The notes below the pieces were generated by a model, which ran no database searches, was not told the DNA's origin, and was given only the letters and a program-made list of their open reading frames with translations. Made by a program: the position numbers and the translations under genes. A stretch of DNA of 64,000 nucleotides from Candidatus Woesearchaeota archaeon (lineage in GTDB: Archaea; Nanobdellota; Nanobdellia; SCGC-AAA011-G17; CAYUTI01), in contig CAYUTI010000001.1 in the NCBI GenBank assembly GCA_964447685.1, positions 267,064 through 331,063 on the forward strand. The letters are read 5' to 3'. Positions 30,935 through 50,634 of this stretch are shown here, in pieces (the stretch's first letter is position 1; the number at the start of each line of letters is the position of its first letter).

Positions 30935-32386
30935 ATGAAAAAGAGGAAATTTAAACATGTTAAGGAGTATAAGGATTTTATTATTCTTATTTGGGTTATT
31001 TTTGGAGTTGGTTTAGTAATCTTTAATTCTAATCTTTCTTTGGAAGATATAACTGGTTTTGTTGTTAGTGGAGATGATTTTGATATCTTTGTTGAGTGTG
31101 TTATTCCTAATCAAAGTGTTGGACATGGAGATAGTGGTTATATTATTAATTTTAGTTATCTTTGGAATGGATTTGAAAATCTTAGTTTAGATGAAAGTAA
31201 ATTTAGAGGACCTAAAACTGATGTTGAACCTATTACAGTATTTGAACCTGGGAAACATTCTTTTTTAGTTGGCGTTCATGCTAATGGAAATTTAAATTGG
31301 GAAGTTGTTATTGAGGAAATTGAAAAGGGTATAACTGTTGGTAAGGATTATGGAACTGTTTGTAATGTTAGTTTAGATTTAGATGAAGATGGATTTTATG
31401 AAGATGATTGTGATGATACTAATGCTTTGATAAATCCTTATGCTTATGAAATTTGTGATGGTTTAGATAATGATTGTAACTTAGATACTTTAGATGGTTC
31501 TTTTGAGAATTGGTATTTTAACACTACTTCTTGTGGGATTGGAGAGTGTTTTGCTATGGGTATTATGGATTGTATAAATGGTAGTTTAGTGAATACTTGT
31601 ACCGTTCTTGATGAATCTGTTGAAGATTGTGATGGTCTTGATAATGATTGTGATGGTTTGATTGATGAGGATTTAACTAGAGAGTGTAGTAATAATTGTA
31701 GTGTTGGTGTTGAGATTTGTTTTGATGCTGAATGGATTAATTGTAGTGCTGAGGCTTGTGTAGAGGTTCCCTTGAATGAAACGATTCCTGAGAATGAAAC
31801 TATTCCTTTGAATGAGACAATACCTGAAAATGAAACCTTGCCTGAGGAAGAAATTGATTTTGGAATTGTTTTATTAAGTCCTGAAAATGAGTTGAGTACT
31901 TATGATAGAGATTTTGAGTTTGAGTATTTAAGTAATGCTAGCAATTGTAGTTTAATTTTAGATGGGATCGAGGTTAATGGTTTCAATTTTAATTTAGGGA
32001 TTGGTAAACATAATTGGAGTGTTAGTTGTTTAGAAAATTCTAGTGAGGTTTGGAGTTTAGTTATTTTAGAGCAAGTTAATACTGGAAGTTCTGGAAGTGG
32101 TTCTAATGGCAAGGATGATAATATAGAAATTGTTCCGGTTCAAGAGGTTGTAGAAGAACCTGAGGAGATTGTTGTTGAACCTTTTGAAGTTGAGACTGGA
32201 GGAAGTAGTAGAATTGTTAGAAATGAAACTATTATTGAAGATGAACCTTCGATTAATCCAATTACGGGTTTTGCTGCTTTGGATATAATGAGTGATCTAA
32301 ATCCTGGTTGGTGGTTGATTTTACTAATAGTTAGTTCTGGATTGGTTTATTATGTTTATAAGAAGAAGTTCTTGAAGAAAAAATGA
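30935..32386 (+). CDS. surface protein with MopE-like CDGxDNDCDG metal-binding motifs, NET tandem repeats and C-terminal TM
   Basis: CDGLDNDCN.. and CDGLDNDCDGLIDED; NETIPENETIPLNETIPENETLPEE; C-terminal TM + KKKFLKKK. Confidence 0.7.
   Translation: MKKRKFKHVKEYKDFIILIWVIFGVGLVIFNSNLSLEDITGFVVSGDDFDIFVECVIPNQSVGHGDSGYIINFSYLWNGFENLSLDESKFRGPKTDVEPITVFEPGKHSFLVGVHANGNLNWEVVIEEIEKGITVGKDYGTVCNVSLDLDEDGFYEDDCDDTNALINPYAYEICDGLDNDCNLDTLDGSFENWYFNTTSCGIGECFAMGIMDCINGSLVNTCTVLDESVEDCDGLDNDCDGLIDEDLTRECSNNCSVGVEICFDAEWINCSAEACVEVPLNETIPENETIPLNETIPENETLPEEEIDFGIVLLSPENELSTYDRDFEFEYLSNASNCSLILDGIEVNGFNFNLGIGKHNWSVSCLENSSEVWSLVILEQVNTGSSGSGSNGKDDNIEIVPVQEVVEEPEEIVVEPFEVETGGSSRIVRNETIIEDEPSINPITGFAALDIMSDLNPGWWLILLIVSSGLVYYVYKKKFLKKK
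31774..31845 (+). repeat. 4 x 18-bp tandem repeat encoding NETIP(E/L)
   Basis: aatgaaacgattcctgag / aatgaaactattcctttg / aatgagacaatacctgaa / aatgaaaccttgcctgag. Confidence 0.7.
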
Positions 32387-39057: not shown

Positions 39058-40989
39058 ATGAAAAAGAGGATTTTAGTAGTTTTGATGTTTTTATTAATGG
39101 TAAGTTTAGTTTCAGCTAGTCTTAAGGTAGAAGGCCCTAGCAGAGATACATATAATTATGGCGATGATGTAGCAATAGAAGGTTATGTTTTTAGAGATGA
39201 TGATTTTAATGGTTTCCTTAAATTAAGTTTTTTATGTTCTAATCAAACTTTTCCTTTGGGTGTTGTTAGTCTAAGTTTGGAAGGTGGTGAAAAAAAACAA
39301 TTCCCTGGTGAGATCGCATTGCCTAAACTTTTTATTTCTAGTTCTTTAAGCGGGAGTTGTAATATAAATGTTAAACTTGTTTCTGGTGCAAATGTTGTGG
39401 AAGAAACTAATAGTGGAATGTTCTCGATAAGTAAGAATTTGGAGGGTATTTTTAATCTTGATTCTAGTGTTGTTCAGATTGGAGGTAAAATAGAGTTAGT
39501 AGCTGATATTTCTAAATTAAATGGTATTGGAACTAGCGGTAGTGCAGAAATCTATTTTGAAACTAATGGTACTGAAAAATATTTGGTTGATGTTGTTAGC
39601 TTTGAAGATGGAGATTTAGATTATCAATATATTGTTCCTTCTTATAGTTCTAGTGGGGAGTATACTATTGATCTATTAATAAATGATTATTATGGTAATC
39701 AGCAATATTTTGATGATGTTGCGAATTTTATTTTAATGAGTGAATTAGATCTTGATGTTAATACTAATGTTAAAAGTGTTATGCCTGGAGAAAGTATAGA
39801 GATTTATGGAGAAGTTAAAACTGTATTACAAGAGAAAGTAGATTCAGGTAGTGCTAAAATATCTTTAGATGGAGATAATTTTGTTTGTGAAATTGAAGGT
39901 GGAAGTTTTAGTTATACTTATGAGATTCCTAATAATTTCCCTAGTGGAGAGCATGTTTTTAAAGTAAGTGTTATGGATGAATTAGGTAATAAAGGGAGCG
40001 TAGATGTATCTTTTCAAGTAACCCCTATTGTTACTTCTTTAGGTCTTGAATTAGAGAAGGATTATAATCCCGGTGTTGAGATCAGTTTAATACCTATGAT
40101 TTATGATCAGGCAGGAGAAGTAGTTGAGGGTGAATCAGTTAGTCTTGAGATAATTGATCCTGGTCGAAAAACGGTTTTTAGAGATGTTGTAGATAGTGGA
40201 GATAGTTTAGAAATTGAATTAAGCAGAGATGCAAAACCAGGGGAATATGTAGTTAAGGCTTATGCTTTAGGAGTAAGTAAGGATTTTAAGTTTGGTGTTA
40301 ATGAATTAATGATTATAGGTGTTGAATTAAATAATCAGAGTTTAATTGTTACTAATACTGGAAATGTTAAATATACTAAACCTATTGAGGTTGAATTGAA
40401 TCTTGGAGAGTATACAATTGTTAAAAAGAATAGTTTAGCTCCTGGTGAAGTTTTAGAGATCAGATTGGATGAAGAGGTTCCTAGTGGTATTTATGATGTT
40501 AGAGTTCCTTTAGCTGAGAATGGTGGCGAATTTAGAAGAGTAGTTATTGTTGGTAAAAGTGGGATTAATATCACTTGGATTTATTGGTTATTAGCTATAG
40601 GTGTGATTATTTTATTATATTATTTATTTAAAGGTAAGAAGAGAGAAAGAAAACAAGTTCATTTTAAGAAAAGAAAAGATTTCAAAGAAGGGGAAGAAAT
40701 TAAAAAAGAAAAAGAAAGACGTGAGACTGAAGATGAAAGAGTTAAGAAGTTTAGAAAGAGAATTGCTAATACTTTAAGTGGTAAGAAAAAGAAAAAATTT
40801 AGTTTTGGTGGGAAAAAAGAAGGTGGTTATATTACTATAAAAGTTAAAGATGAAGAAGGTGATTCTATAGGTTCTAATTATAATCATAGTGGTTATAAAG
40901 AAGAGAGAGCTAGTCCTTATCGTTCTACTGAAAATAAAGGAAAAAGTTCTGATGAACCTAGTTCTGGTTTTATGAATATGTTTGGTTAA
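39058..40989 (+). CDS. secreted surface protein with C-terminal TM and Lys/Glu-rich tail
   Basis: Signal peptide, beta-rich Ig/CARDB-like body, TM near aa 510, basic tail. Confidence 0.6.
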   Translation: MKKRILVVLMFLLMVSLVSASLKVEGPSRDTYNYGDDVAIEGYVFRDDDFNGFLKLSFLCSNQTFPLGVVSLSLEGGEKKQFPGEIALPKLFISSSLSGSCNINVKLVSGANVVEETNSGMFSISKNLEGIFNLDSSVVQIGGKIELVADISKLNGIGTSGSAEIYFETNGTEKYLVDVVSFEDGDLDYQYIVPSYSSSGEYTIDLLINDYYGNQQYFDDVANFILMSELDLDVNTNVKSVMPGESIEIYGEVKTVLQEKVDSGSAKISLDGDNFVCEIEGGSFSYTYEIPNNFPSGEHVFKVSVMDELGNKGSVDVSFQVTPIVTSLGLELEKDYNPGVEISLIPMIYDQAGEVVEGESVSLEIIDPGRKTVFRDVVDSGDSLEIELSRDAKPGEYVVKAYALGVSKDFKFGVNELMIIGVELNNQSLIVTNTGNVKYTKPIEVELNLGEYTIVKKNSLAPGEVLEIRLDEEVPSGIYDVRVPLAENGGEFRRVVIVGKSGINITWIYWLLAIGVIILLYYLFKGKKRERKQVHFKKRKDFKEGEEIKKEKERRETEDERVKKFRKRIANTLSGKKKKKFSFGGKKEGGYITIKVKDEEGDSIGSNYNHSGYKEERASPYRSTENKGKSSDEPSSGFMNMFG

Positions 40990-41166
40990 CGATTAGTATT
41001 TATGTTAAACCAAGTGTAAGGCATACAATGTCCTGTTATAATTGTAAATATTAGCAAGGTTGTTACTATGTAAAGCCATGGTGTGTATTTGTAACCTAAG
41101 TAAGCTGTGATAATTGCTAGAATACCTCTTATTATTTTATCTGTAGTTCCGACGTTTTTGATCATT

Positions 41167-41643
41167 TTATCTTCCTCCTTTTATGAAAATGATATCTTTA
41201 TCTTCTTCTATTTGGTTGTAGTCCTTTAATAACTTTTGTATTTCTTTTAGATATTTAGATCTTTTTAAGAAGGAGATTGCAATTTGAGCATTAGGTTTTG
41301 CTACTCTATTTATTTCTTTTATAGCTTGTTTTAGATTTGAGTGGTGGAGAGCTGTTATGCTTATAATTGTATCGAAGGTGTTATCTTTGAAAGGTAAAGA
41401 TTCTGCTTTTGCTAGAACTTTTTTTCCTTTGTATTGTTTAAGTAGTTCTTCTGAAGGATCTAGTGCTATTGCTTCTTTGGAATCTTTTTCAAATGGTTTA
41501 GTGGAAATCCCTGTACCTGCTCCAATGTCTAGAAGTTTTCCATAAGGTTTTTTTAGATGTTGTTTGATTATTTTAACTTTCTTTAGTTGTTCTTCTTTGT
41601 GAAGTTCATTGTAACCTTTGGCTGTTTCGTTGTAGTATTTCAT
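41167..41643 (-). CDS. class I SAM-dependent methyltransferase
   Basis: Motif I LLDIGAGTGISTKPF. Confidence 0.65.
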   Translation of the reverse strand: MKYYNETAKGYNELHKEEQLKKVKIIKQHLKKPYGKLLDIGAGTGISTKPFEKDSKEAIALDPSEELLKQYKGKKVLAKAESLPFKDNTFDTIISITALHHSNLKQAIKEINRVAKPNAQIAISFLKRSKYLKEIQKLLKDYNQIEEDKDIIFIKGGR

Positions 41644-41810
41644 TTTTCGCTTAGATCACATATCTCATTATTGTTTGTATCTTGATATTGTCCACAAGAG
41701 CCAGGGTAGGGATCATTTGTTAAACCTGAAGGACATTCTGTGTTTGTTGTTGTTTCTGTTGAGCATCCGGTTAGTAAAAGCAATATTATTAAAATAATTA
41801 TTAGTTTCAT
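41640..41810 (-). CDS. unannotated 56-aa Cys-containing lipoprotein (below the ORF-track length cutoff)
   Basis: MKLIIILIILLLLTGCS lipobox; mature peptide with 4 Cys; its ATG overlaps the permease TGA and its TGA overlaps the MTase ATG (ATGA twice). Confidence 0.5.
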   Translation of the reverse strand: MKLIIILIILLLLTGCSTETTTNTECPSGLTNDPYPGSCGQYQDTNNNEICDLSEK

Positions 41811-42832
41811 AGTAATACATTGAATAAATAACCTAATAATAAAACTTGTGGTCCTGCTATTATTGGAAGCCAGATAGCAGATTTTCTTCCGATGTTTGAC
41901 CAGATAAGACCTATTTCTGTATAATCTGTTACAACTCCTGCTAGTAAGAAAACAAATGAGTTTCCGAAAGCCCCTGTTTGTTGGAAGATTTCAAAGGCTA
42001 AAGGTGATGAACCTTCTGAACAAACTTCTATTATTGTTGCTAAGATTAGAGTTACAAATAAACCTAAAACTGTGGGCCCCATATATTGATGGAATAAACT
42101 TTCTGAAATAAAGGTTCTTGCTACTGAAGCTAATAAAATACCTATTAAAATCCACCATGTTACCATCTTGTTTAGTTTCCATGCACCTTTAAATAAGCCA
42201 GTAAGATCTTTTTTTAAATTGAAATTGTAAGCTGCCTTTCTTTTTCTGATATCTTTCATGATAGAGAAGTTCTTTTCTAGTTCTATGGTTCTTGATTGTT
42301 CTATAAGTCCTTTTTTATCTAGATATTGGTAGATAAAACCAGTTATTATTGCTATGATTATTGCACCTATTATAATCATCAATGCATTAACTCCGAAGAA
42401 GCTGAATAGTAGTAAGGTTATTGTAAAGTTAGCCCATGGTGATGCTAGTAAAAAAGCTATAACTGCCGGTATAGAAGCTCCTTTTTTGTAAAGTTCTATT
42501 GAGATTGCTAAGATACCATGTGAACAAGCAGACATTATAAAACCTAATAAAACTGCATTTAGGATTGTTGTTTTTTTCTTCTTTGAAAGATATTTTGCTA
42601 TATATTCTTCTGGGACGAAGTAGTCGATAAATCCTCCGATGAAAAATCCTAATAAAACTGCCCACCAAATTATTTTAATATATTCTGTGAAAGCCGCTAG
42701 TAATGGATTCAAGAGGGGGATTAGATAAGATATGGTTAAGATGATTATTGTTAGTATTAACACTTGATAGAATCTTTCTTTGTACCATTTATTTACTTGA
42801 ACAGTACAAGTTGGACATTCCTCTTTTTTCAT
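41807..42832 (-). CDS. DUF318/YraQ-family permease with N-terminal CPTC motif
   Basis: 8-10 TM helices; N-terminal MKKEECPTCTV. Confidence 0.55.
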   Translation of the reverse strand: MKKEECPTCTVQVNKWYKERFYQVLILTIIILTISYLIPLLNPLLAAFTEYIKIIWWAVLLGFFIGGFIDYFVPEEYIAKYLSKKKKTTILNAVLLGFIMSACSHGILAISIELYKKGASIPAVIAFLLASPWANFTITLLLFSFFGVNALMIIIGAIIIAIITGFIYQYLDKKGLIEQSRTIELEKNFSIMKDIRKRKAAYNFNLKKDLTGLFKGAWKLNKMVTWWILIGILLASVARTFISESLFHQYMGPTVLGLFVTLILATIIEVCSEGSSPLAFEIFQQTGAFGNSFVFLLAGVVTDYTEIGLIWSNIGRKSAIWLPIIAGPQVLLLGYLFNVLL

Positions 42833-42878
42833 AGTTATATTAAAGATTAAGTAATATTAAAGGTTTGTGGAGGGAGCT

Positions 42879-43118
42879 TTAAGCTCCACATCCACAGCTT
42901 GAGATTCCACAAGAACCTTTACATTCTTGGTTGCAGGTTGCTGCACCGCAGGTACTTGCACATCCACATCCTTCAATACCACAGTTACCCCCACATTCTC
43001 CGTTACATGTGCTTTCTCCGCAGGTTGCTGCTGTTTCTTGTGAAGAAGCTGAGGCATAGATTGCTCCTCCTACCAATAGTACAGCGATTGCCATTACTGC
43101 TAAAGTTGTTTTTCTCAT
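42879..43118 (-). CDS. secreted Cys-rich repeat peptide (signal peptide + 2 x 24-aa [Cx4Cx3Cx3Cx4CxC] units)
   Basis: MRKTTLAVMAIAVLLVGGAIYASA signal; TCGESTCNGECGGNCGIEGCGCAS / TCGAATCNQECKGSCGISSCGCGA internal duplication; GC-richer codons. Confidence 0.6.
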   Translation of the reverse strand: MRKTTLAVMAIAVLLVGGAIYASASSQETAATCGESTCNGECGGNCGIEGCGCASTCGAATCNQECKGSCGISSCGCGA

Positions 43119-43273
43119 ATAGTTTACCTCCTATTGTTTTATAATTAGTAGAACTAGATATGATATATATTTAAGGGCTGAAACTGATGCAAGAAAAAGG
43201 GGTTTATTGCTTGAATTTGTTGAGTAGACCGTTTATAGTTAAATATTTAAAGAGTTAGAGTTAGCTTTTTGTT

Positions 43274-43480
43274 ATGGTAATAAAAATAGACTATAAAAAA
43301 TGTTGTTGGAAAGATGGTAAGTGTACTTCTTGTTGTTGTGGTGGAAAGTGTGAAGGTTGTGTTGAAGCTTGTCCAGTTGGTGCATTGACTAGAGGTAAGT
43401 TAGTTGAAGTAGATGCTGAGAAGTGTATTAATTGTGGTGCTTGTATTAGTGCTTGTAAGCATGAAGCTATTAAACTTTAA
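43274..43480 (+). CDS. small 2x[4Fe-4S]-type ferredoxin with extra N-terminal Cys cluster
   Basis: CEGCVEACP and CINCGACISAC ferredoxin motifs, preceded by KKCCWKDGKCTSCCCGGKC. Confidence 0.7.
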   Translation: MVIKIDYKKCCWKDGKCTSCCCGGKCEGCVEACPVGALTRGKLVEVDAEKCINCGACISACKHEAIKL

Positions 43481-43985
43481 TCTTAAGAAATACTTGTTTT
43501 GTTTTTCCTTTTTGTTTTCTTGTAATTAATCCTTTTTTCTCTAGGTTGTCTAGAACTATACTAAGTTTAGATTTGTGTAAACCTGTTCTTAGTCTTAGAG
43601 TTTGTTGAGTTATGCCATCTTGTTCTTTGATGGCTTGAATAACTTTCTTTTCATATTCATCTAAACCTTTTTGTAGGATTTCAAATCTTTCTTCTTCTAA
43701 ATTAAGTTGTTTTTGTTTTTCTAGAGTTGAAACTATTTCTTTTTGTGATTTTTCAAAGAATATTAAGTAAATACCTAGAGCTGCTAATGCACTAATTAAT
43801 GCTATACCTGCATAAGTTGGCCAAGGGGTTTGTACTTCGTGAGGACAGACTCCACCTTCTTCCATTTCAGTACATGAACATGCTGTTGCTGTTTGTTGGT
43901 TTAATGCTTTATTAAATGAGAAAATTAAACATCCTAGTAAGATACAGATTACAATTAAAATTATTCCTAGTTTTTTGTTTTCCAT
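43470..43985 (-). CDS. membrane-anchored wHTH (MarR-like) regulator with extracytoplasmic CxC..CPH loop
   Basis: Two TMs flanking ACSCTEMEEGGVCPHE; C-terminal winged helix GITQQTLRLRTGLHKSKLSIVLDNLEKKGLITRK. Confidence 0.55.
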   Translation of the reverse strand: MENKKLGIILIVICILLGCLIFSFNKALNQQTATACSCTEMEEGGVCPHEVQTPWPTYAGIALISALAALGIYLIFFEKSQKEIVSTLEKQKQLNLEEERFEILQKGLDEYEKKVIQAIKEQDGITQQTLRLRTGLHKSKLSIVLDNLEKKGLITRKQKGKTKQVFLKIKV

Positions 43986-43987
43986 CT

Positions 43988-44506
43988 TTAAACGAAACTA
44001 CCTAGTAAGTCTCCTACTATATGAGTTATTATTATTACTATAATTGCGATTATTAAATGTTCTGAAACTGCAATCCAGGATCTTTTTTCTGTTTTATACA
44101 TTTTGTAACTTGTTAAGGCGATTAAAGATAACCCCCAAATGATGCTTACCCAAATAGCTATAATTAAATTGAAAATAAAAAGAGGTATTAAGAAGGTTAA
44201 AGCGAAAATGAATTTGAAAATGAATGTTGATATTGTTGCTTCCCAAACGGTTTTATGTTTATGTTTCTTTTCAAACTCTTCTGAAATATGAATGCCTAAA
44301 GCATCTGATAGCGCATCTGCAATTGCTATTGTTAGAATACCTGTGATAACTATTAGTTTTGATCCGGTAGAAGAATTTAAACCCACCATTAACCCTAAAG
44401 TTGTTATGATACCTGATGTTAATCCGAATGATAACCCCTTTTTATATGATTCTTTCATGATTTTGTTTTTATCTTTTAATTTAAATAGTTTACTGATTTT
44501 CTTCAA
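43988..44506 (-). CDS. VIT1/CCC1-family (DUF125) putative Fe/Mn transporter, short form
   Basis: GLSFGLTSGIITTLGLMVGL plus three further TMs. Confidence 0.5.
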   Translation of the reverse strand: MKKISKLFKLKDKNKIMKESYKKGLSFGLTSGIITTLGLMVGLNSSTGSKLIVITGILTIAIADALSDALGIHISEEFEKKHKHKTVWEATISTFIFKFIFALTFLIPLFIFNLIIAIWVSIIWGLSLIALTSYKMYKTEKRSWIAVSEHLIIAIIVIIITHIVGDLLGSFV

Positions 44507-45467
44507 ATAAATATTTTGGAAGATAAGATCTTTTGTAGTAAGTGTAAAAATCTATCATATTAAACGTTTCTAGAATTTCTTTATAATTTTCTCTAATCTC
44601 TGTTATTATTTTTCTTATTTTTGTTTTGTTCATTGATTCAATATCTAGCTCCATATCCCAATCGCCTACTGTCTTATTGATTTGAACTATTTCTGTATTT
44701 TTTAATAAAAATTTAGTGAATTCTGCTTCTTTTTCTAAATCTAGATTGTGTAATTTTAGTAAAATTCTAACTTTGTGGATGTCTAATTTATTCGTGTTTA
44801 TTATTCTTTTGAAACCTTTAATTATATTCTTTTTCATTAGTTGGTTTAAGGTTGTCTTAGCTGTTTTAATGTTTAAGTCTGTTTCTTTTGCTAGATCTGT
44901 TAATCTCATATTTGGATTTTTTAGTAGACTCTTAATTATTTTTAGCTCATTGTTTGATAGGGTTTCTGGTTCTCTATCTCCTCCGAATAAGGTTTCTGGA
45001 TATTTTTTATCTAGATTTTTTGTGAGATAATCTCTTGGAGTTAAGTAAGTAACTAAATTCAATATAATTTTATAATCTTTTAAAGTTGGAATGGATGTTA
45101 CTAACTTTTTAAGTTCTTTGTTAAACTTTGATGGGTTTGGAGAAGCGAATTCTATAGCTAAATCAAATTCTCCTTCTAGTTCATAGATTGAAAGGATGAA
45201 AGGATTGTCTCTAAGTTCTTTAATTATCTTTGACCTGTCTTTTTCACTAATATATGCATTCCTAAAATAGACTCTAAATAAAATTAATCTGAAATAGGAG
45301 TATTCGAAAATGCAAAAAGGTTCTTTAAGTATATCTTCCTTTTGAAGTGTAGAAATTGAGTATTTTAACCTTTGAGGACTTTTCTTAAGGATTTTAGAGA
45401 TTTCTTTTAGTGATAATCTACTGTTTTCTGATGTTAAATATAAGAGGTTATAGTCTATTTTTCCCAT
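44490..45467 (-). CDS. tandem-HTH (Lrp/AsnC-like N-domains) transcriptional regulator
   Basis: Two HTH units: NLLYLTSENSRLSLKEISKIL.. and ELKIIKSLLKNPNMRLTDLAKETDL... Confidence 0.5.
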   Translation of the reverse strand: MGKIDYNLLYLTSENSRLSLKEISKILKKSPQRLKYSISTLQKEDILKEPFCIFEYSYFRLILFRVYFRNAYISEKDRSKIIKELRDNPFILSIYELEGEFDLAIEFASPNPSKFNKELKKLVTSIPTLKDYKIILNLVTYLTPRDYLTKNLDKKYPETLFGGDREPETLSNNELKIIKSLLKNPNMRLTDLAKETDLNIKTAKTTLNQLMKKNIIKGFKRIINTNKLDIHKVRILLKLHNLDLEKEAEFTKFLLKNTEIVQINKTVGDWDMELDIESMNKTKIRKIITEIRENYKEILETFNMIDFYTYYKRSYLPKYLFEENQ

Positions 45468-46542: not shown

Positions 46543-47163
46543 ATGGATGAAATTGCAATTTTCTCTAATGAAACTAATTATTATTATAAGTTTGTTAATA
46601 CCAAAGATTGGCCTACTATTAAAATATCTGGAACACCCATGCATAGATATACAAAGCTTTCTCCTAAAGAAGATACTATCTCTAAAATTAATGAGATTAA
46701 ACCTGTTAAAGGAAAAGTTTTAGACACTTGTTGTGGATTAGGTTATACTGCAATAATGGCTGCTAAAGATGCTGAAGTGGTTTATACTTTTGAATGGGAT
46801 GATAACATGATCTATATGTGTGAACAAAATCCCTTTTCTAAGGAATTGTTTAAAGCTAAGAATATTAAATTAGTTAGAGAAGATGTAGCTGATGGTATTA
46901 AGAAATTCCAAAATGATTTCTTTGATCGGATTGTTCATGATCCACCTACATTTAAGATGTCACCTGAATTGTATTCTTCTAGATTCTATGCTGAGCTTTA
47001 TAGAGTCTTGAAGAGAGGCGGTAAGTTGTATCATTATCTTCCTGCTCCTCAAAAAACTAAAGGTAAGAATTTTTATATTAATGCGGTTAAAAGATTGAAA
47101 GAAGCAGGTTTTAAGAATGTTGAATATCATCCAGAAAGTTCTGGTGCAGTTGCTGTTAAATAA
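46543..47163 (+). CDS. SAM-dependent amino-methyltransferase (DPPY-like motif IV)
   Basis: Motif I VLDTCCGLGYT; motif IV VHDPPTF. Confidence 0.55.
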   Translation: MDEIAIFSNETNYYYKFVNTKDWPTIKISGTPMHRYTKLSPKEDTISKINEIKPVKGKVLDTCCGLGYTAIMAAKDAEVVYTFEWDDNMIYMCEQNPFSKELFKAKNIKLVREDVADGIKKFQNDFFDRIVHDPPTFKMSPELYSSRFYAELYRVLKRGGKLYHYLPAPQKTKGKNFYINAVKRLKEAGFKNVEYHPESSGAVAVK

Positions 47164-47734
47164 GTTTCTTAATTATTTCTTTTATATCTAATTTGTTTTC
47201 TTCGGCTTCTATTTTCTTTAGTTCTGATTTTGTTGCAGGATTTTTTGGTAGGAATGGGCAGGTGTGTTGGTCTTGAATTGAAATGTCAAAGGTTCCTATT
47301 TTCTTCGCTATTGTGATTGCTTCTTCTTTGTCGTAAGCTAGTAAAGGTCTTAGTACTGTCAATTTGGTTGCTTGATCTAAAACTGTTAAGTTATCTAGGG
47401 TTTGTGAAGCTACTTGACCTAGTGATTCTCCTGTTAGAATATATTTTGCTTTGTGTTTTTTTGCTAAGGCTTCTGCGATTCTGTACATCATTCTTTTGCA
47501 AAGAATGCAGGTGTATTTTGGGTTAGTATGTTTTTTTATTTCTTGTAAAGGAATTGTTTGATCTATTATAATTAGTTTTGAATCTTTGTTTATTTTGTTT
47601 TTTAGTGTTTCTATCTTTTTATTATTGTTTGATGTTGAGAAGTGTAAGAAGATTAGTTCTAGTTTGTTTTTCATTAAGTGTGAAGCTACTGGTGAGTCTA
47701 TGCCTGTTGAAAGTAAAACTATTGCTTTTTCCAT
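47156..47734 (-). CDS. ThiI-like PP-loop ATP pyrophosphatase (no THUMP domain)
   Basis: PP-loop LLSTGIDSPVAS (SGGxDS-like); CILCKRMMYRIAEALA matches the ThiI C-terminal block. Confidence 0.55.
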   Translation of the reverse strand: MEKAIVLLSTGIDSPVASHLMKNKLELIFLHFSTSNNNKKIETLKNKINKDSKLIIIDQTIPLQEIKKHTNPKYTCILCKRMMYRIAEALAKKHKAKYILTGESLGQVASQTLDNLTVLDQATKLTVLRPLLAYDKEEAITIAKKIGTFDISIQDQHTCPFLPKNPATKSELKKIEAEENKLDIKEIIKKLI

Positions 47735-48381
47735 TTTATCCTTTCTAGAGTGTTATTTTTTAGGTTTAATCTTAGAATATCTTTTTCTATATTTTGTTTG
47801 GTTAGGATTTTAATTGCTTCTGAAACTTGTAGAGATGAAGCTATACTTGCGGTTGGCGAAATAATTCCTGTCTTTTGAGGATGTAAAGGTGTTTTATTTA
47901 GTAAGTTTGAAATGTCTTCGTTGATTACTGTTTTTAGAATGATTAAGTAACCTGTTGCTGCAGTGAAGATCCAAGGAATGTTGTTTGTTTTGCAATAATC
48001 ATTAATTACTTTTCTTGCTTCTTGGTTATCTGTGCAATCTAGAATTAGGTCTGAATTGTAGAGTAATTGAGTATTAGTTTGATTTAGTTTTTCATTTTTA
48101 ATGTTTATTTTAATATTTTTATTTATTTTTTTTAAATGAGTTTTTAGAGCATTTACTTTTAGTTTTTTAACATCTTTTTCTTCATACAACCTTTGCCTAT
48201 GTAGATTTTTTAATTCTACTTTATCTTGATCAATAATTGTTAGTTCTTTTATTCCTGCTCTTGTTAAGAGTTCTGCTGAGTTTGTTCCTAAGGCACCTGC
48301 TCCAACTATAGTTACTTTAGAAGATTCTATTAGAGATTGTGCTTTTTTTCCTATTAGATTTGTTTGAGTAATGTAACGCAT
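47719..48381 (-). CDS. E1-like ThiF/MoeB/UbaA-family adenylyltransferase
   Basis: Nucleotide-binding VTIVGAGALGTNSAELLTRAGI..IIDQDKVELKNLHRQ. Confidence 0.75.
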   Translation of the reverse strand: MRYITQTNLIGKKAQSLIESSKVTIVGAGALGTNSAELLTRAGIKELTIIDQDKVELKNLHRQRLYEEKDVKKLKVNALKTHLKKINKNIKINIKNEKLNQTNTQLLYNSDLILDCTDNQEARKVINDYCKTNNIPWIFTAATGYLIILKTVINEDISNLLNKTPLHPQKTGIISPTASIASSLQVSEAIKILTKQNIEKDILRLNLKNNTLERIKWKKQ

Positions 48382-48413
48382 ATTTTCTAGAAGATATTTC
48401 TAGTTTTTAAGGT

Positions 48414-49013
48414 TTACTCTAAGATAGGAACTTCATAATTTAGGAAACATAATGCAACTAAAGCTGTTCCGTGTTTCTTTGTTGGTGTGAAACTCTTGAT
48501 CATTAACTTTTTATCTTTAAGTTCAAACCTTTCAGAATAACCATTGGTGTATAATTCATTTAAACTTGCATTTAATGATTCTTTAACAAATGCTTCTGTA
48601 TCATTACCATTGTATTCGCATACTAATCCACCATATTTTTTCTTTGTTTTTTTATCATATAACCAACCAAAAATTATTCCTGCTGTTGCACGTTCACCTT
48701 TTTTAGAATTTGCGCAAGCGGTGATAGTTTCCATTACTGCACCGTGTGTTAAGGAATTAATTAGAGTAGGTGTCTTTTTAATTTCTCTTGCGATACCAGG
48801 TAAAATTGAAGAATATGTCATGATGTTACATCTTTCAATGCCTGCATCACATAAAGCTAGATGATATGAACCTGCATGGACTGTTATGTCACTCTCGCCC
48901 ATACCAGTGGTTATAAAGAAGTCTTTAGGTACCCTGTTGCCTACCAATATTTTTTTTGGTATCTTGATTTGATTTTCATAACTCATCTTCACCTTTGTGT
49001 GCTTGATATGCAC
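48414..49013 (-). CDS. pdaD: pyruvoyl-dependent arginine decarboxylase
   Basis: TTGMGESDITVHAGSYHLALCDAGIERCNIMTYSSILP matches the PvlArgDC conserved core. Confidence 0.6.
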   Translation of the reverse strand: MHIKHTKVKMSYENQIKIPKKILVGNRVPKDFFITTGMGESDITVHAGSYHLALCDAGIERCNIMTYSSILPGIAREIKKTPTLINSLTHGAVMETITACANSKKGERATAGIIFGWLYDKKTKKKYGGLVCEYNGNDTEAFVKESLNASLNELYTNGYSERFELKDKKLMIKSFTPTKKHGTALVALCFLNYEVPILE

Positions 49014-49135
49014 TTAATTATTGAATCTAATTTTTTATTTATTTGGGTTTATAAAGCTTTTTATTGCTGTTTTAAGAGGTTTTTAGAAGTTAGTTTCGAA
49101 AAGTTTATATATAAGTATTAACTATTGTTAACACT

Positions 49136-49489
49136 ATGCATTCATTACCTCAAGAGATCGAAGTTTGGTATGTAATCCCTGCTATTCGTAGAGAGTTTGT
49201 TAAAGAGATGAAGAGTAAAGGATTGAATCAAAGTGAGATTGCTGTTAAATTAGGTTTGACAAGAGCTGCTGTTTCGCAATATGTTTCTGGTAAGAGAGGT
49301 AGTGAAGTTAAGTTTAGTAAAGATGTTAAAGAAGAGATTTCAAAAGCTGTTGTTGGTTTGATGGAAGGTCGTGAACCAGTAAGTGCTATTCAGAGAGTTT
49401 TAAATTTTATTAAGAAGAAAGGATGTTTATGTGATATTCATAAAAAATTAGATAAAAATGTTTGTAATTGTGGAGGTTGTTGCAAATGA
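49136..49489 (+). CDS. HTH regulator with C-terminal Cys cluster, upstream of iscS
   Basis: HTH LNQSEIAVKLGLTRAAVSQYVSGKRG; C-terminal CLCD..CNCGGCC. Confidence 0.5.
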   Translation: MHSLPQEIEVWYVIPAIRREFVKEMKSKGLNQSEIAVKLGLTRAAVSQYVSGKRGSEVKFSKDVKEEISKAVVGLMEGREPVSAIQRVLNFIKKKGCLCDIHKKLDKNVCNCGGCCK

Positions 49490-50634
49490 AAATGATATAT
49501 TTAGATAATGGGGCTACTACAATGTTAGATCCAAAAGTTGTTAAGACTATGGAACCTTATTTTAATCTTAAGTATGGAAATGCTTCTTCAACTCATGCTT
49601 TAGGTCGTGAAGCTAAGATGGCTTTGAATGATGCTCGACATGTTATTGCTAAATCTATTAAAGCTAAAGATGAAGAGATTATATTTACTTCTGGTGGAAC
49701 TGAATCAAATAACTTGGCTATTAAGGGTTTGGCTTTTAATCGAGGTAATGGTCATATTATAACTACTAAGATTGAACATGATTGTGTTTTGAATTCTTGT
49801 AAGTGGTTAGAGAAGAGAGGATTTTCTGTAACCTATTTGGATGTTGATAAAGAAGGTTTTATTAGTGTTGATTCTTTAAAGAATGCTATTCGTGAAGATA
49901 CTTTTTTGTTTTCTGTGATTCATGGTAATAATGAGATTGGAACTATTCAAAATCTTAAAGAGTTAGCTAAAGTTTGTCATGATCATGGTGTGTTAATTCA
50001 TACTGATGCTTGTCAGAGTTATACTAAAACTGAATTGAATGTTAAGAAGCAAGGTTTGGATTTAGTTACTTTGAATGCTCATAAGATTCATGGGCCTAAA
50101 GGAGTTGGTGCACTTTATGTTAGACATGGTGTGAAGTTAGAACCTTTGGCACATGGTGGTGGACATGAAAGAGGTCTTCGAAATGGTACTGAGAATGTTC
50201 CTGGAATTGTCGGATTTGCAATGGCTGTTAAGTTAGCTATGAAAGGAAAACATGTTAGAAGTATGACTAAATTAAGAGATGAATTGATTTCTGGAATATT
50301 AAAAATTCCTGGAGTTAGATTGAATGGTCCTAGAAAAGAAAGATTATGTAATAATGTTAATGTTAGTTTTAAGAACATTGAGGGTGAGGCTATTGGTGGT
50401 TATTTAGATGTTAATGGTATTTGTAGTTCTACTGGTAGTGCTTGTAGTTCACATTCATTAGAAGCAAGTCATGTTTTGAAAGCTATTGGCCTTTCAGATA
50501 TTGATGCACATGGTTCCTTAAGATTGACTTTGAGTAGATTTACAACTGAAGCTGAGATTAGAAAGTGTTTAGAGGTTTTGCCTGGTATTATTAGTAAGTT
50601 GCGGAAGATGAGTCCATATAAAGGAGGTCTTTAA
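49486..50634 (+). CDS. iscS: cysteine desulfurase IscS/NifS
   Basis: SGGTESNNLAIKG; PLP-Lys HKIHGPKG; active-site SSGSACSS. Confidence 0.9.
   Translation: MKMIYLDNGATTMLDPKVVKTMEPYFNLKYGNASSTHALGREAKMALNDARHVIAKSIKAKDEEIIFTSGGTESNNLAIKGLAFNRGNGHIITTKIEHDCVLNSCKWLEKRGFSVTYLDVDKEGFISVDSLKNAIREDTFLFSVIHGNNEIGTIQNLKELAKVCHDHGVLIHTDACQSYTKTELNVKKQGLDLVTLNAHKIHGPKGVGALYVRHGVKLEPLAHGGGHERGLRNGTENVPGIVGFAMAVKLAMKGKHVRSMTKLRDELISGILKIPGVRLNGPRKERLCNNVNVSFKNIEGEAIGGYLDVNGICSSTGSACSSHSLEASHVLKAIGLSDIDAHGSLRLTLSRFTTEAEIRKCLEVLPGIISKLRKMSPYKGGL

What the first reader, a model, noticed from the sequence alone, without database searches (positions are those of the whole stretch)
42879..44506. Candidate undescribed Cys-rich metal/redox module: secreted Cys-repeat peptide, Cys-cluster ferredoxin, membrane wHTH sensor-regulator and VIT1-like transporter
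Four adjacent genes in alternating orientation share a Cys-chemistry theme. (1) A Sec-secreted 53-aa mature peptide is an exact internal duplication of a 24-aa unit [T-C-x4-C-x3-C-x3-C-x4-C-x-C], giving 12 Cys. It is metallothionein-like in CxC/Cx3C spacing but exported, and its codon usage is GC-richer than its neighbours. (2) Divergently transcribed is a 68-aa 2x[4Fe-4S] ferredoxin carrying an extra N-terminal KKCCWKDGKCTSCCCGGKC cluster. (3) A one-component regulator has two TM helices flanking an extracytoplasmic ACSCTEMEEGGVCPHE loop and a cytoplasmic winged helix, i.e. a membrane-embedded metal/redox-sensing transcription factor. (4) The fourth gene is a short VIT1/CCC1-family transporter. 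I do not know of this combination being described. It could be an extracellular metal-chelation or detoxification system, or a redox-active peptide (RiPP-like) system with its own sensor and exporter.
Basis: partly seen in the sequence, partly recalled or inferred. Interest (0 to 1): 0.8.

Follow-up and report, generated by a model that had tools for sequence, protein, structure and literature searches.

The report
Membrane copper sensor with exported cysteine peptide
A tiny uncultured archaeon (Woesearchaeota) carries a previously unannotated system: a membrane-anchored gene switch with outward-facing cysteines, sitting next to a conserved DNA control element that most likely turns on an exported, metallothionein-like 12-cysteine peptide and a metal efflux pump, probably to handle copper-type metals outside the cell.

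Summary
All four genes exist as described, but the four-gene module is only half right. The membrane wHTH regulator (43470-43985) and the exported Cys peptide (42879-43118) belong together. In 68 Woesearchaeal loci holding a regulator homologue, 46 carry one conserved 85-nt promoter/operator, usually starting on the regulator's stop codon. It drives interchangeable cassettes:
- the Cys peptide, in 22 loci, with or without an ArsP_1 permease;
- a MerTP-like Cys-tailed membrane protein plus ArsP_1;
- CopZ, an HMA-DsbD_2-cupredoxin protein and a Cu(I) P-type ATPase.

The window holds exactly one copy of this element, in front of the peptide.

The peptide family has about 123 clusters, six invariant Cys, no Pfam, NCBIfam or PDB match, and is always called "hypothetical". 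VIT1 never co-occurs (0/68). The ferredoxin is a widespread Woesearchaeal protein found near the module in about 4% of loci. No RiPP maturase is nearby.

Best reading: an extracytoplasmic Cu(I)/soft-metal-sensing transmembrane transcription regulator controlling an exported metallothionein-like peptide and efflux. Metal identity, binding and direction of regulation are inferred, not shown.

The parts
43470..43985 (-). Transmembrane transcription regulator, 171 aa. Layout: N-in TM1, a roughly 30-aa outward loop with C36-x-C38-x8-C47-P-H, TM2, a long helix, then a C-terminal winged helix.
   Evidence: Pfam MarR, MarR_2, DUF7343, TrmB and HTH_24 all score above cut-off. There are 581 homologues; the top 120 listed are 64-78% identical, and the named ones are Woesearchaeota/Nanoarchaeota. 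C36, C38 and C47 are invariant in 24 sequences. AF2 gives pLDDT 74.5 with helices 3-36 and 55-105 and a wHTH at 110-167. Foldseek matches MarR family and CadC.
43163..43247 (-). Conserved 85-nt promoter/operator. Consensus: TATAAACGrT, about 11 nt, GAATTCT, about 5 nt, TTTCAGCC-TTTT, about 7 nt, TCAGTTTCA, 3 nt, CTAAAATATATAT (TATA box). An SD (GGAGGT, 43126-43131) and the peptide ATG follow it.
   Evidence: It is the only copy in the 64-kb window, with 0 expected by chance. The same element with fixed 51-nt box spacing occurs in 46 of 68 regulator loci. It overlaps the regulator stop codon in a fixed register in 27 of 46. No consensus RNA structure exists on either strand.
42879..43118 (-). 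Exported Cys-rich peptide, 79 aa. It has a Sec-type signal ending ASA, an acidic/polar linker, and two 6-Cys units (C-x4-C-x3-C-x3-C-x4-C-x-C).
   Evidence: Homologues lie directly after the regulator/operator in 25-27 of 65 loci. Six Cys are invariant. The family has 36 word-seeded hits and 123 clusters in the exhaustive HMM search, all 58-151 aa. No motif ORF occurs in 384 kb of control loci. There is no Pfam, NCBIfam or PDB relative. AF2 predicts the Cys domain as disordered.
41807..42832 (-). ArsP_1-family permease, 341 aa, with an N-terminal CPTC motif and CSHG/CSEG membrane motifs. It is the probable soft-metal efflux component.
   Evidence: Pfam ArsP_1 E=1.1e-39. Best NCBIfam hits are SO_0444 Cu/Zn efflux (123.9 bits, below the 300 cut-off) and SaoE. 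ArsP_1 follows the peptide or the MerTP-like protein in at least 12 loci. SO_0444 is required for Cu/Zn tolerance (PMC3219624).
41640..41810 (-). Small lipoprotein-like Cys protein, 56 aa. It has an LLTGC lipobox-like site and the motif ECPxGxxxDPYPGxCGxY. Its start overlaps the permease stop by 4 nt.
   Evidence: ORF. Precomputed Pfam hit PF27309 MJ0753_N. Homologues lie directly after the regulator in L045 and L038.
41167..41643 (-). Class I SAM methyltransferase, 158 aa, translationally coupled by a 4-nt overlap. It is an operon member in this genome, but its role in the module is unclear.
   Evidence: Pfam Methyltransf_11 E=2.9e-20. It contains no Cys, so it is not an ArsM-type enzyme (sequence). 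Similar methyltransferases occur only sporadically in related loci.
40986..41165 (-). YgaP-like two-TM protein, 59 aa, the last gene of the co-directional string.
   Evidence: Pfam YgaP-like_TM E=3.5e-12. Gene call.
43274..43480 (+). 68-aa 2x[4Fe-4S]-type ferredoxin with a Cys-rich insertion (KCCWKDGKCTSCCCGGKC). It is a neighbour, not a core part. It is divergent from the operator (36 nt from box 1) and its 3' end overlaps the regulator by 11 nt.
   Evidence: Pfam Fer4. 219 metagenome relatives were found. Of the 80 loci kept, 2-3 have a regulator nearby. The conserved motif is KCCWKdGKCxSCxCGGxCxGCVEaCP. The same divergent arrangement occurs in L006, and in L005 the ferredoxin follows the regulator on the same strand.
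43988..44506 (-). Short VIT1/CCC1-family membrane protein, 156-172 aa. It ends 2 nt before the regulator start, so it is probably co-transcribed here. It is not a conserved partner.
   Evidence: Pfam VIT1 E=1.3e-11. It is near the regulator in 0 of 68 loci.

Best explanation
The region holds one cassette of a thiophilic-metal (most likely Cu(I)) regulon shared across Woesearchaeota. The proposed mechanism has four steps.

1. **Sensing.** The 171-aa regulator is a transmembrane transcription regulator. Two TM helices display a short loop outside the cell. That loop carries conserved Cys...Cys-[P/L]-His ligands (here CxC-x8-CPH). The C-terminal winged helix stays in the cytoplasm.
2. **DNA binding.** The winged helix binds the conserved 85-nt element, which in most genomes begins on the regulator's own stop codon. 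The element ends immediately upstream of the BRE/TATA of the next operon, so the membrane-tethered factor acts in cis.
3. **Signal transfer.** Metal binding, or metal-driven thiol chemistry, at the outer loop is transmitted through TM2 and the long helix and changes promoter activity. Activation is slightly favoured because the sites lie upstream of BRE/TATA. Repression is not excluded.
4. **Output in this genome.** The operon is peptide, ArsP_1 permease, small Cys lipoprotein, methyltransferase, YgaP-like protein. The peptide is exported by Sec. Its two six-Cys units fold around metal-thiolate clusters as in metallothioneins, for example Cu4S6 per unit. This buffers metal in the space between membrane and S-layer while the permease expels cytoplasmic metal.

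**Shown in silico:** gene architecture, family conservation, the operator and its linkage to metal cassettes.

**Inferred:** topology, metal identity, metal binding by loop and peptide, DNA binding, sign of regulation, and direction of transport.
For: **Synteny**
- The peptide lies directly downstream, on the same strand, of the regulator in 25-27 of 65 loci.
- No motif ORF occurs in 384 kb of control loci from the same lineage.

**Operator**
- 47 copies share fixed spacing and an 85-nt consensus.
- The element travels with the cassette when another gene is interposed (L005, L013, L016, L021, L027, L037, L041, L047, L048, L050).
- There is one copy in the window, in front of the peptide.
- It shows no RNA structure.

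**What the operator drives**
- Peptide first in 18 loci, plus 4 behind a TM-thioredoxin.
- HMA chaperone in at least 10.
- MerTP-like Cys-tailed protein in 7.

**Metal identity of the partner genes**
- HMA and DsbD_2 above Pfam cut-offs, a weak Cupredoxin_1 match (16.8 bits against 27) and an E1-E2 ATPase.
- The ATPase passes TIGR01511, the copper-translocating IB1 model (640 bits against a 397 cut-off). It has CPC, YN and MxxSS motifs (sequence; motif meaning from PMC7558416).
- The ArsP_1 permease is nearest to SO_0444, a family shown to be needed under Cu/Zn stress.

**Sensor loop**
- All three loop subtypes keep two Cys and a His or Met.
- That ligand set matches the Cu(I) site of CsoR and Sco-type proteins (PMC7558416).

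**Peptide properties**
- 23% Cys and no aromatic residues in the mature part.
- Six invariant Cys.
- AF2 predicts disorder, as expected for an apo-metallothionein, which folds only on metal binding (PMC7558416).
- Cys/Gly tails of similar composition, ending SCGGSCG...CGCGG, terminate the DsbD_2 and MerTP-like proteins under the same operator.
Against: - There is no experimental datum for any member of the regulator or peptide family.
- The peptide-domain HMM does not significantly match the Cys tails of the larger proteins (E of about 1-5). That resemblance is compositional, not demonstrated homology.
- The permease scores far below the SO_0444 equivalog cut-off (123.9 against 300).
- Cassettes also contain DsbA, TM-thioredoxins and DsbD_2. 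Neighbourhoods hold rubrerythrin, SOD, Ogg and thioredoxin reductase. A thiol-redox signal is therefore not excluded.
- MerTP-like proteins hint at Hg or other soft metals rather than Cu alone.
- 22 of 68 regulator loci lack a recognisable operator under my filter.
- Topology rests on hydropathy and AF2 only.
- No CopA or HMA gene is present in this 64-kb window.
Confidence: 0.6

Rival explanations
1. Extracytoplasmic thiol/disulfide (oxidative) stress module. The loop cysteines of the regulator sense oxidation, by O2 or by metal-catalysed disulfide formation. The regulon restores reduced thiols outside the cell. The peptide would be a sacrificial thiol buffer or a disulfide-rich protective mini-protein.
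For: - TM-thioredoxin precedes or follows the peptide in L005, L014, L039, L040, L055 and L057.
- DsbA-like and DsbD_2 proteins are in the cassettes.
- Rubrerythrin, SOD, thioredoxin reductase, glutaredoxin and Ogg recur upstream.
Against: - The commonest non-peptide outputs are dedicated metal proteins: CopZ/HMA, a Cu(I) P1B ATPase above the TIGR01511 cut-off, MerTP-like proteins and ArsP_1.
- AF2 gives no confident disulfide-knotted fold.
- The conserved His/Met next to the last Cys suits a metal site better than a redox switch.
- Copper and disulfide stress are mechanistically coupled, so the thioredoxins fit the metal model as well.
Confidence: 0.18
2. Metal acquisition rather than detoxification. 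The exported peptide acts as a proteinaceous metallophore that captures scarce soft metals (Cu, Zn, Ni). The ArsP_1 or MerTP-like proteins import them, and the membrane sensor reports external metal availability.
For: - MerT/MerP-type proteins are importers in mer systems, and Mem238 weakly resembles a MerTP fusion.
- DPANN archaea have reduced genomes and live in sulfidic settings where soft metals are poorly available (general knowledge).
- The peptide is exported.
Against: - The same operator drives CopZ plus a Cu(I)-exporting P1B-1 ATPase.
- The characterised relative of the permease, SO_0444, confers tolerance, which points to efflux.
- No recognisable receptor or uptake system for a peptide-metal complex was found.
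Confidence: 0.1
3. Peptide, Cys-extended ferredoxin, regulator and VIT1 transporter would work together as one metal/redox module, with VIT1 as the exporter.
For: - The genes are physically adjacent in this window. VIT1 ends 2 nt before the regulator start.
- The ferredoxin is divergent from the operator here and in L006, and follows the regulator in L005.
- NapH-like 4Fe-4S membrane proteins follow the regulator in L005, L027 and L043. A ferredoxin-fed electron path to external thiols is therefore conceivable.
Against: - VIT1 is within 6 kb of the regulator in 0 of 68 loci.
- The ferredoxin is near the regulator in 3 of 68 loci, and a regulator is near the ferredoxin in 2-3 of 80.
- The ferredoxin family is highly conserved (66-80% identity) and usually sits in unrelated contexts.
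Confidence: 0.06
4. RiPP or bacteriocin-like secreted peptide with its own exporter and sensor.
For: - It is a small Cys-rich repeat peptide next to a permease and a regulator.
- There is a faint NCBIfam hit to the Cys-Xaa-Xaa-Xaa repeat radical-SAM target family (E=0.069, 13.2 bits against a cut-off of 50).
Against: - No radical SAM/SPASM, YcaO, lanthionine synthetase or peptidase-containing ABC transporter lies within about 7 kb, nor recurs in the 68 loci.
- The peptide has a classical Sec signal, not a leader peptide.
- Its partner genes are metal-handling proteins.
Confidence: 0.03

Closest known systems
Transmembrane transcription regulators (TTRs): ToxR/CadC in bacteria, ArnR/ArnR1 in Sulfolobus
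   Same: It is a one-component regulator that stays in the membrane, senses outside the cell and binds DNA inside. The class has been catalogued as widespread in archaea (PMC10269533; ArnR in PMC6396743).
   Different: - The order is reversed relative to ToxR, CadC and ArnR (from my own knowledge of those proteins): an N-terminal TM hairpin and a C-terminal MarR/TrmB-type winged helix.
- The sensor is only a roughly 30-residue Cys2(Cys)His loop, not a folded periplasmic domain.
- The inferred signal is a soft metal.
- The operator is fused to the regulator's own stop codon.
- No member has been studied.
Cytoplasmic Cu(I) sensors CsoR, CopY, CueR and the ArsR/SmtB family (e.g. CadC of pI258)
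   Same: - It would control copZ/copA-type efflux genes and metal-binding proteins.
- The Cys2His ligand set resembles that of CsoR (PMC7558416).
- The wHTH core superposes on CadC and MarR structures.
   Different: - Those sensors are soluble and read cytoplasmic metal. This one places its ligands outside the membrane.
- There is no sequence homology in the sensing part.
- It lacks the MarR or ArsR dimerisation helices.
Metallothioneins (bacterial SmtA/BmtA, MymT)
   Same: - It is small, 23% Cys, with CxC and Cx3C spacing, no aromatic residues and modular duplication of a Cys unit.
- It is predicted disordered without metal. Metallothioneins fold on metal binding (PMC7558416).
- It is controlled by a metal-type regulator.
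   Different: - It carries a Sec signal and is therefore extracytoplasmic. Known prokaryotic metallothioneins are cytosolic.
- It matches no Pfam, NCBIfam or PDB family.
- It is archaeal (DPANN).
- Metal binding is untested.
Csp1-type exported copper storage proteins
   Same: It is an exported Cys-rich protein proposed to hold Cu(I) outside the cytoplasm (PMC7558416; PMC12510493).
   Different: Csp1 is Tat-exported, forms a pre-folded four-helix bundle of about 120 aa and assembles as a tetramer. This peptide is a Sec-exported, unstructured Gly/Cys peptide of 35-55 residues.
SO_0444 / ArsP / SaoE permeases (Pfam ArsP_1)
   Same: It has the same Pfam family and membrane Cys motifs. SO_0444 is needed for growth under Cu/Zn stress (PMC3219624).
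   Different: Its scores are well below the equivalog cut-offs. It has an extra N-terminal CPTC motif, or a TRASH-like domain in relatives. The substrate is unknown.

Membership tests
MarR/TrmB-type winged-helix DNA-binding domain (Pfam PF01047, PF12802, PF24034, PF01978) | Profile match above the curated gathering score | tested here: met
   DUF7343 32.8/27.6, MarR_2 31.0/27, MarR 29.8/24.6, TrmB 26.6/25.6, HTH_24 24.1/21.9
MarR/TrmB-type winged-helix DNA-binding domain (Pfam PF01047, PF12802, PF24034, PF01978) | Three-helix bundle plus beta-hairpin wing fold | tested here: met
   AF2 gives H110-122, H127-134, H138-150, E154-159 and E162-167. Foldseek finds MarR-family chains at 1.3-2.2 A over about 65 residues.
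Canonical MarR family regulator | N- and C-terminal helices forming the MarR dimerisation domain around the wHTH, in a soluble protein of about 140 aa | tested here: not met
   The protein ends at the wing (residue 171). Upstream of the wHTH are a TM hairpin and one long helix. Only the roughly 60-residue core aligns well.
Transmembrane transcription regulator (TTR) class | A DNA-binding domain and at least one predicted TM segment in one polypeptide | tested here: met
   Two hydrophobic segments at 1-29 and 56-80 plus a wHTH. Class definition from PMC10269533.
Transmembrane transcription regulator (TTR) class | Membrane localisation and DNA binding from the membrane | not testable with these tools
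   Needs fractionation, topology reporters and ChIP or EMSA.
Metallothionein (functional class) | Low molecular weight, high Cys content, CxC/CxxC-type motifs, few or no aromatic residues | tested here: met
   The mature part is about 53 aa with 12 Cys (23%), contains CGC, Cx3C and Cx4C, and has no F, W, Y or H.
Metallothionein (functional class) | Formation of metal-thiolate clusters | not testable with these tools
   Needs metal titration with MS or spectroscopy. AF2 disorder of the apo form is compatible but not evidence.
Metallothionein (known sequence families) | Profile or sequence similarity to a described metallothionein family | tested here: not met
   0 Pfam families. No meaningful NCBIfam hit. 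PDB profile search gave only chance hits, E at least 0.14.
Pfam ArsP_1 (PF03773) permease | Full-length profile match above the gathering score | tested here: met
   136.8 bits against 32.3, covering 7-293 of 294 model positions
SO_0444 family Cu/Zn efflux transporter (NF033936, equivalog) | Score at or above the curated equivalog cut-off | tested here: not met
   123.9 bits against a cut-off of 300. SaoE scores 106.5 against 325.
VIT1/CCC1 family (PF01988) | Profile match above the gathering score | tested here: met
   45.1 bits against 28.1. The best stretch covers only model positions 118-213 of 214.
2x[4Fe-4S] bacterial-type ferredoxin | Two CxxCxxCxxxC(P) motifs | tested here: inconclusive
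   The second motif is intact (C51xxC54xxC57xxxC61). The first is interrupted: C10, a 15-residue Cys-rich insert, then C26xxC29xxxC33P. Fer4 scores 40.9 bits against 21.1.
RiPP precursor, including the Cys-Xaa-Xaa-Xaa radical-SAM target family TIGR04117 | Family profile match and an adjacent maturase (radical SAM/SPASM, YcaO, LanM and similar) | tested here: not met
   TIGR04117 scores 13.2 bits against a cut-off of 50. No maturase lies among the neighbours in the window or recurs in related loci.
Cu(I)-type P1B-1 ATPase (partner gene in related loci, not in this window) | TIGR01511 above cut-off, plus CPC, YN and MxxSS transmembrane motifs | tested here: met
   L016 3905-6079 scores 640.5 bits against 397. 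The motifs ACPCALG, FYN and MALSS are visible in the sequence.

The most novel reading that the evidence does not exclude
A lineage-wide archaeal system in which a membrane-tethered transcription factor reads soft-metal (Cu(I)) levels outside the cell through a minimal Cys2His loop. It acts in cis on a promoter fused to its own stop codon. It controls a new family of Sec-exported mini-metallothioneins built from six-Cys units that have duplicated in several members. If true, this would be the first exported metallothionein-type peptide I could find described and the first metal-sensing TTR, in the otherwise poorly understood DPANN archaea. The peptide could also serve as the buffer that sets the sensor's threshold.
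Probability: 0.4. Interest if true: 0.75.

Novelty: new variant of a known kind. Interest (0 to 1): 0.62.

Why it matters
**Gene regulation in DPANN archaea.** Almost nothing is known about gene regulation or metal handling in DPANN archaea. This locus offers a complete, testable regulatory unit. It has a sensor, an 85-nt operator with a clear consensus, and defined outputs. It is conserved across dozens of uncultured genomes and could serve to define a regulon in silico.

**Where metal sensing happens.** It would extend metal sensing from soluble cytoplasmic regulators to a membrane-tethered factor with external ligands.

**Where thiolate buffering happens.** It would extend metallothionein-type thiolate buffering to the outside of the cell.

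**Practical value.** The six-Cys unit is a compact candidate metal-binding tag. The regulator-operator pair is a candidate archaeal metal biosensor.

**Annotation.** More than 120 clusters of 'hypothetical' small proteins and several hundred 'MarR family' or 'uncharacterized membrane' proteins can be re-labelled.

Tried and rejected
1. **Single-sequence search.** A word-seeded search with the peptide alone returned only itself. That would have suggested an orphan or an artefact. Synteny-guided ORF scanning around regulator homologues recovered the family, and profile searches then confirmed it.
2. **Structured RNA.** RNAalifold on 47 in-register copies of the conserved intergenic element gave no consensus structure on either strand. 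Rfam found only three tRNAs in the window.
3. **Second operator-like match.** The match at 31874-31890 (1 mismatch) lies antisense inside a 483-aa surface-protein gene and lacks box 1.
4. **Homology to the Cys tails.** The domain HMM gave only E of about 1-5 against the DsbD_2 and MerTP-like tails. The claim was downgraded to compositional resemblance.
5. **ArsM/ArsP-style metalloid methylation and efflux.** The methyltransferase has no cysteine. Its best hits are generic: PRK05785, BioC and UbiE.
6. **Peptide structure.** AF2 modelled only the signal helix confidently. The Cys domain has pLDDT of about 41-49, so no fold search was attempted.
7. **Foreign origin from high GC.** GC3 equals that of the neighbouring gene.
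8. **Other cassette genes in the window.** A search for CopA, HMA or DsbD_2 found none.
9. **Literature.** Searches for MJ0753, and for metallothioneins or Cys-rich peptides in DPANN, found nothing relevant.


Full report
**1. What is in the sequence**

*Peptide (42879-43118, minus strand).*
- It encodes 79 aa, with a hydrophobic N-terminus ending in ASA.
- The mature part is about 53 residues with 12 cysteines arranged as two 24-residue units.
- Both units have the identical register C-x4-C-x3-C-x3-C-x4-C-x-C.
- The units share 15/24 residues and 48/72 nucleotides. This is an old duplication that preserved the Cys register, not an exact repeat.
- The local GC peak reflects Cys, Gly and Ala codons. 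GC3 is 0.237, the same as the next gene.
- A GGAGGT Shine-Dalgarno sequence sits 7 nt before the ATG.

*Ferredoxin (43274-43480, plus strand).* It matches Fer4 models.

*Regulator (43470-43985, minus strand).*
- It has two hydrophobic segments.
- Its winged helix passes five Pfam gathering thresholds.
- The AF2 model (pLDDT 74.5) shows TM1, a loop, one long helix spanning TM2, and a canonical wHTH.
- Foldseek matches MarR-family structures and CadC.

*VIT1 (43988-44506, minus strand).* It passes the VIT1 threshold.

*Orientation.* It is -,+,-,-.

- an ArsP_1-family permease at 41807-42832 (Pfam E=1e-39; nearest NCBIfam models SO_0444 Cu/Zn efflux and SaoE, both below cut-off; N-terminal CPTC);
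- a 56-aa Cys lipoprotein-like gene;
- a methyltransferase;
- a YgaP-like protein.

The permease, the 56-aa gene and the methyltransferase are joined by 4-nt overlaps.

**2. Which genes belong together**

*Regulator family.*
- The regulator has 581 homologues in the word-seeded search. The 120 listed are 64-78% identical, almost all about 171 aa, and the named ones come from Woesearchaeota/Nanoarchaeota.
- C36, C38 and C47 of the loop are invariant in a 24-sequence alignment.

*Synteny.* I fetched 68 genome loci around regulator homologues and compared their neighbours.
- VIT1 never occurs within 6 kb of the regulator (0/68).
- The ferredoxin does so in 3 of 68.
- In contrast, a small ORF lies 100-170 nt downstream of the regulator, on the same strand, in most of the 25-27 peptide-bearing loci (of 65 with enough flank). 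In the rest it lies 450-1360 nt downstream. It has a signal-like N-terminus, a variable acidic linker and a C-terminal ...C-x4-C-x3-CGGxCG[IV]PxCGCG[RG] domain.

*Control.* The same motif search finds 0 such ORFs in 384 kb of ferredoxin-centred loci from the same lineage. It finds only the peptide itself in the 64-kb window.

*Peptide family.*
- Six Cys are invariant across 25 peptides.
- A profile search found 36 members.
- An exhaustive HMM search of 1.84 billion cluster representatives found 123 clusters, all 58-151 aa. The named ones are 'hypothetical protein' from Woesearchaeota.
- None carries a precomputed Pfam domain, and there is no PDB relative.
- Most members have one six-Cys unit. 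The window peptide and several others (L010, L030, L037, P0132, P0139, P0146, P0155) have two.
- The single-sequence search had returned only the query. The family is too short and divergent for word seeding.

**3. A conserved operator links regulator and peptide**

*The element.* The spacer after the regulator is not random. 46 of 68 loci, plus the window, share an 85-nt element:

AAAATc..g.TATAAACG.Taa.aa.c.a.AATTct...gtTt.Agcc.TTtT.......TCAGTTTCAg..CTAAaaTATATaT

- The distance from TATAAACG to CAGTTTCA is fixed at 51 nt.
- The 3' end looks like an archaeal TATA box. A 5' leader with an SD and the first cassette gene follow it.

*Position relative to the regulator.*
- In 27 of 46 loci the TATAA of box 1 contains the regulator's stop codon in one fixed register.
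- Where another gene is interposed, the element moves with the downstream cassette (distances).

*In the window.*
- There is exactly one copy, at 43163-43247 on the minus strand, in front of the peptide. None is expected by chance.
- Here the ferredoxin gene has been inserted, in the opposite direction, between regulator and element.

*Not an RNA.* RNAalifold finds no consensus structure on either strand. The element is best read as a DNA site: AAAC/GTTT-type half-sites and a central GAATTC, upstream of and abutting BRE/TATA.

**4. What the operator drives**

*First gene after the element.*
- The Cys peptide in 18 loci.
- A membrane-anchored thioredoxin followed by the peptide in 4.
- An HMA (CopZ-like) chaperone in at least 10.
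- A roughly 240-aa membrane protein with an HMA-like domain and a Cys/Gly tail in 7. This protein weakly resembles a MerTP fusion.

*Further genes in these operons.*
- An HMA-DsbD_2 protein with a weak cupredoxin-like match, ending in ...GSCGGSCGSSTCGAAxGGSCGCGG.
- A P1B ATPase that passes the copper-specific TIGR01511 model and has the CPC, YN and MxxSS motifs (motif meaning in PMC7558416).
- FtrD-like and DsbA-like proteins.
- The ArsP_1 permease, in at least 12 loci.

*Link to copper and zinc.* SO_0444, the namesake of the nearest NCBIfam model, is required for growth under Cu and Zn stress and was complemented (PMC3219624).

*Conclusion.* The in silico regulon is therefore overwhelmingly about thiophilic metals, with copper the best-supported candidate.

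*Sensor loop.* It comes in three subtypes: CxC-x8-CP[H/M], C-x7-CLH and C-x6-CPH. All keep two Cys and a His or Met, and they show no strict link to cassette type. Two Cys plus one His is the Cu(I) site of CsoR and Sco-type proteins (PMC7558416).

**5. Mechanism proposed**

The regulator is a transmembrane transcription regulator. This class is known to be widespread in archaea, but only ArnR-type members have been studied (PMC10269533; PMC6396743).

1. It would expose the Cys2(Cys)His loop outside the membrane.
2. It would bind Cu(I) or a related soft metal there, and change occupancy or geometry of its winged helix on the adjacent operator.
3. The tight fusion of operator to the regulator's stop codon fits a membrane-tethered factor acting in cis on DNA held near the membrane by co-translational insertion. 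This is an inference.
4. Sites upstream of BRE/TATA slightly favour activation, but repression cannot be excluded.
5. In this genome the output is the peptide plus the ArsP_1 operon.

The mature peptide has 23% Cys and no aromatic residues, and AF2 predicts it as disordered. It behaves like an apo-metallothionein, which folds only around metal (PMC7558416). Because it is exported, it would buffer metal between membrane and S-layer while the permease removes cytoplasmic metal.

A six-thiolate unit matches known Cu4S6 cluster stoichiometry. That comes from my own knowledge and is untested here.

**6. Status of the other two genes**

*Ferredoxin.*
- It belongs to a highly conserved Woesearchaeal family: 219 metagenome relatives, 66-80% identical among the 80 loci kept.
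- Its conserved insert is KCCWKdGKCxSCxCGGxCxGCVEaCP. The window's CCC is an idiosyncrasy of CSC/CTC.
- In 80 loci it is next to a regulator in only 2-3, and next to the operator in at most one.
- Its divergent placement beside box 1 recurs in L006, and it follows the regulator in L005.
- A weak, occasional link is therefore possible, for example supplying electrons to the NapH-like or DsbD_2 proteins. It is not a core part.

*VIT1.* It is probably co-transcribed with the regulator here, given the 2-nt gap. Nowhere else is it a partner.

**7. Rivals**

- **Thiol-redox stress.** Thioredoxins, DsbA, DsbD_2 and nearby oxidative-stress genes keep this reading alive. It explains CopZ, CopA and the MerTP-like proteins poorly.
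- **Metal acquisition.** This reading conflicts with the efflux ATPase and with the SO_0444 phenotype.
- **RiPP.** This reading fails for lack of any maturase and because of the Sec signal.

**8. Novelty**

I found no description of this regulator family, the operator or the peptide family. Pfam, NCBIfam and PDB hold nothing for the peptide.

Each component type has precedents: TTRs, metal-responsive operons, metallothioneins and exported Csp1. I therefore class it as a new variant of a known kind, not categorically new.

The main uncertainties are all experimental: topology, metal identity and binding, DNA binding, and sign of regulation.

Noticed in passing
L035, L047, L032, L031 (subtype II); L036, L055, L058, L029 (subtype III); window 43470-43985 (subtype I): The regulator's outward loop occurs in three sequence subtypes: A[SG]CxCxxMxxGGxCP[H/M], GSCFL[E/D]DGTCLH and ACPSDPxxCPHEQR. 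All keep Cys...Cys-[P/L]-His. Each subtype is found with peptide, HMA/CopA and MerTP-like/ArsP_1 cassettes.
   Followed up: partly
L063 2859-5216, L064, L062, L066, L029: More divergent regulators (42-53% identity) sit upstream of a different conserved cassette of 4-5 small Cys-motif proteins. Motifs include CEYCCG...CxCAHS, an HCPLCT membrane protein, a roughly 80-aa protein ending MVGGC, and a CCHTSHKH membrane protein. None of the five members scanned matches Pfam; the four scanned against NCBIfam (all but the roughly 80-aa protein) also have no match.
   Followed up: partly
L016 2445-3917, L011, L006, L013, L033 (C-termini); L008, L031, L032, L042, L048, L060 (C-termini): HMA-DsbD_2 proteins (with a weak cupredoxin-like match) end in GSCGGSCGSSTCGAAxGGSCGCGG. 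MerTP-like membrane proteins end in GCSxCxxCxGxCGGTCxI. These Cys/Gly tails resemble the peptide in composition but are not significant matches to the peptide HMM.
   Followed up: yes
window 42873-42887: A perfect palindrome GGAGC-TTTAA-GCTCC spans the peptide's stop codon. It could form a small hairpin at the 3' end of the peptide cistron, before the permease gene. That might set peptide-to-permease stoichiometry.
   Followed up: no
window 43237-43274 and L006 2718-2771: The ferredoxin start lies only 36 nt (window) or 52 nt (L006) from operator box 1, in divergent orientation. The reverse complement of box 1 reads TTTATA, and an AAATATTTAAAG stretch lies about 25 nt before the ferredoxin ATG. 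The ferredoxin promoter may therefore overlap the operator.
   Followed up: partly
window 44490-45467 (-): A 325-aa protein is made of two tandem Lrp/AsnC-type units (HTH_24/HTH_AsnC plus an AsnC ligand domain). It lies directly upstream of VIT1 and the regulator, and its stop overlaps the long (TTG) VIT1 start.
   Followed up: no
window 41640-41810 (-); L045 6387-6596; L038 2765-2911: A small lipoprotein-like protein carries the conserved motif ECPxGxxxDPYPGxCGxYxD (precomputed PF27309 MJ0753_N). It follows the permease here, but follows the regulator directly in L045 (and about 400 nt downstream in L038). No literature was found for MJ0753.
   Followed up: partly
window 30935-32386 (+) and 32635-36858 (+): Two large predicted surface proteins. 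One has DxDxDG/Cys-rich repeats and tandem ETIPENETIP repeats. The other is a 1407-aa protein with repeated beta-propeller-like WN/YA motifs and duplicated Ig-like segments. Both end in a TM anchor.
   Followed up: no
window 47156-50634: A sulfur-relay-like cluster: ThiI (PP-loop), a ThiF/E1-like protein and a class V aminotransferase (cysteine desulfurase-like). A pyruvoyl arginine decarboxylase lies between them.
   Followed up: no
window 43988-44506 (-): The VIT1 gene has two candidate starts. TTG gives 172 aa and overlaps the upstream gene. An internal ATG gives 156 aa and is the one used by an independent gene call on the Logan contig.
   Followed up: no
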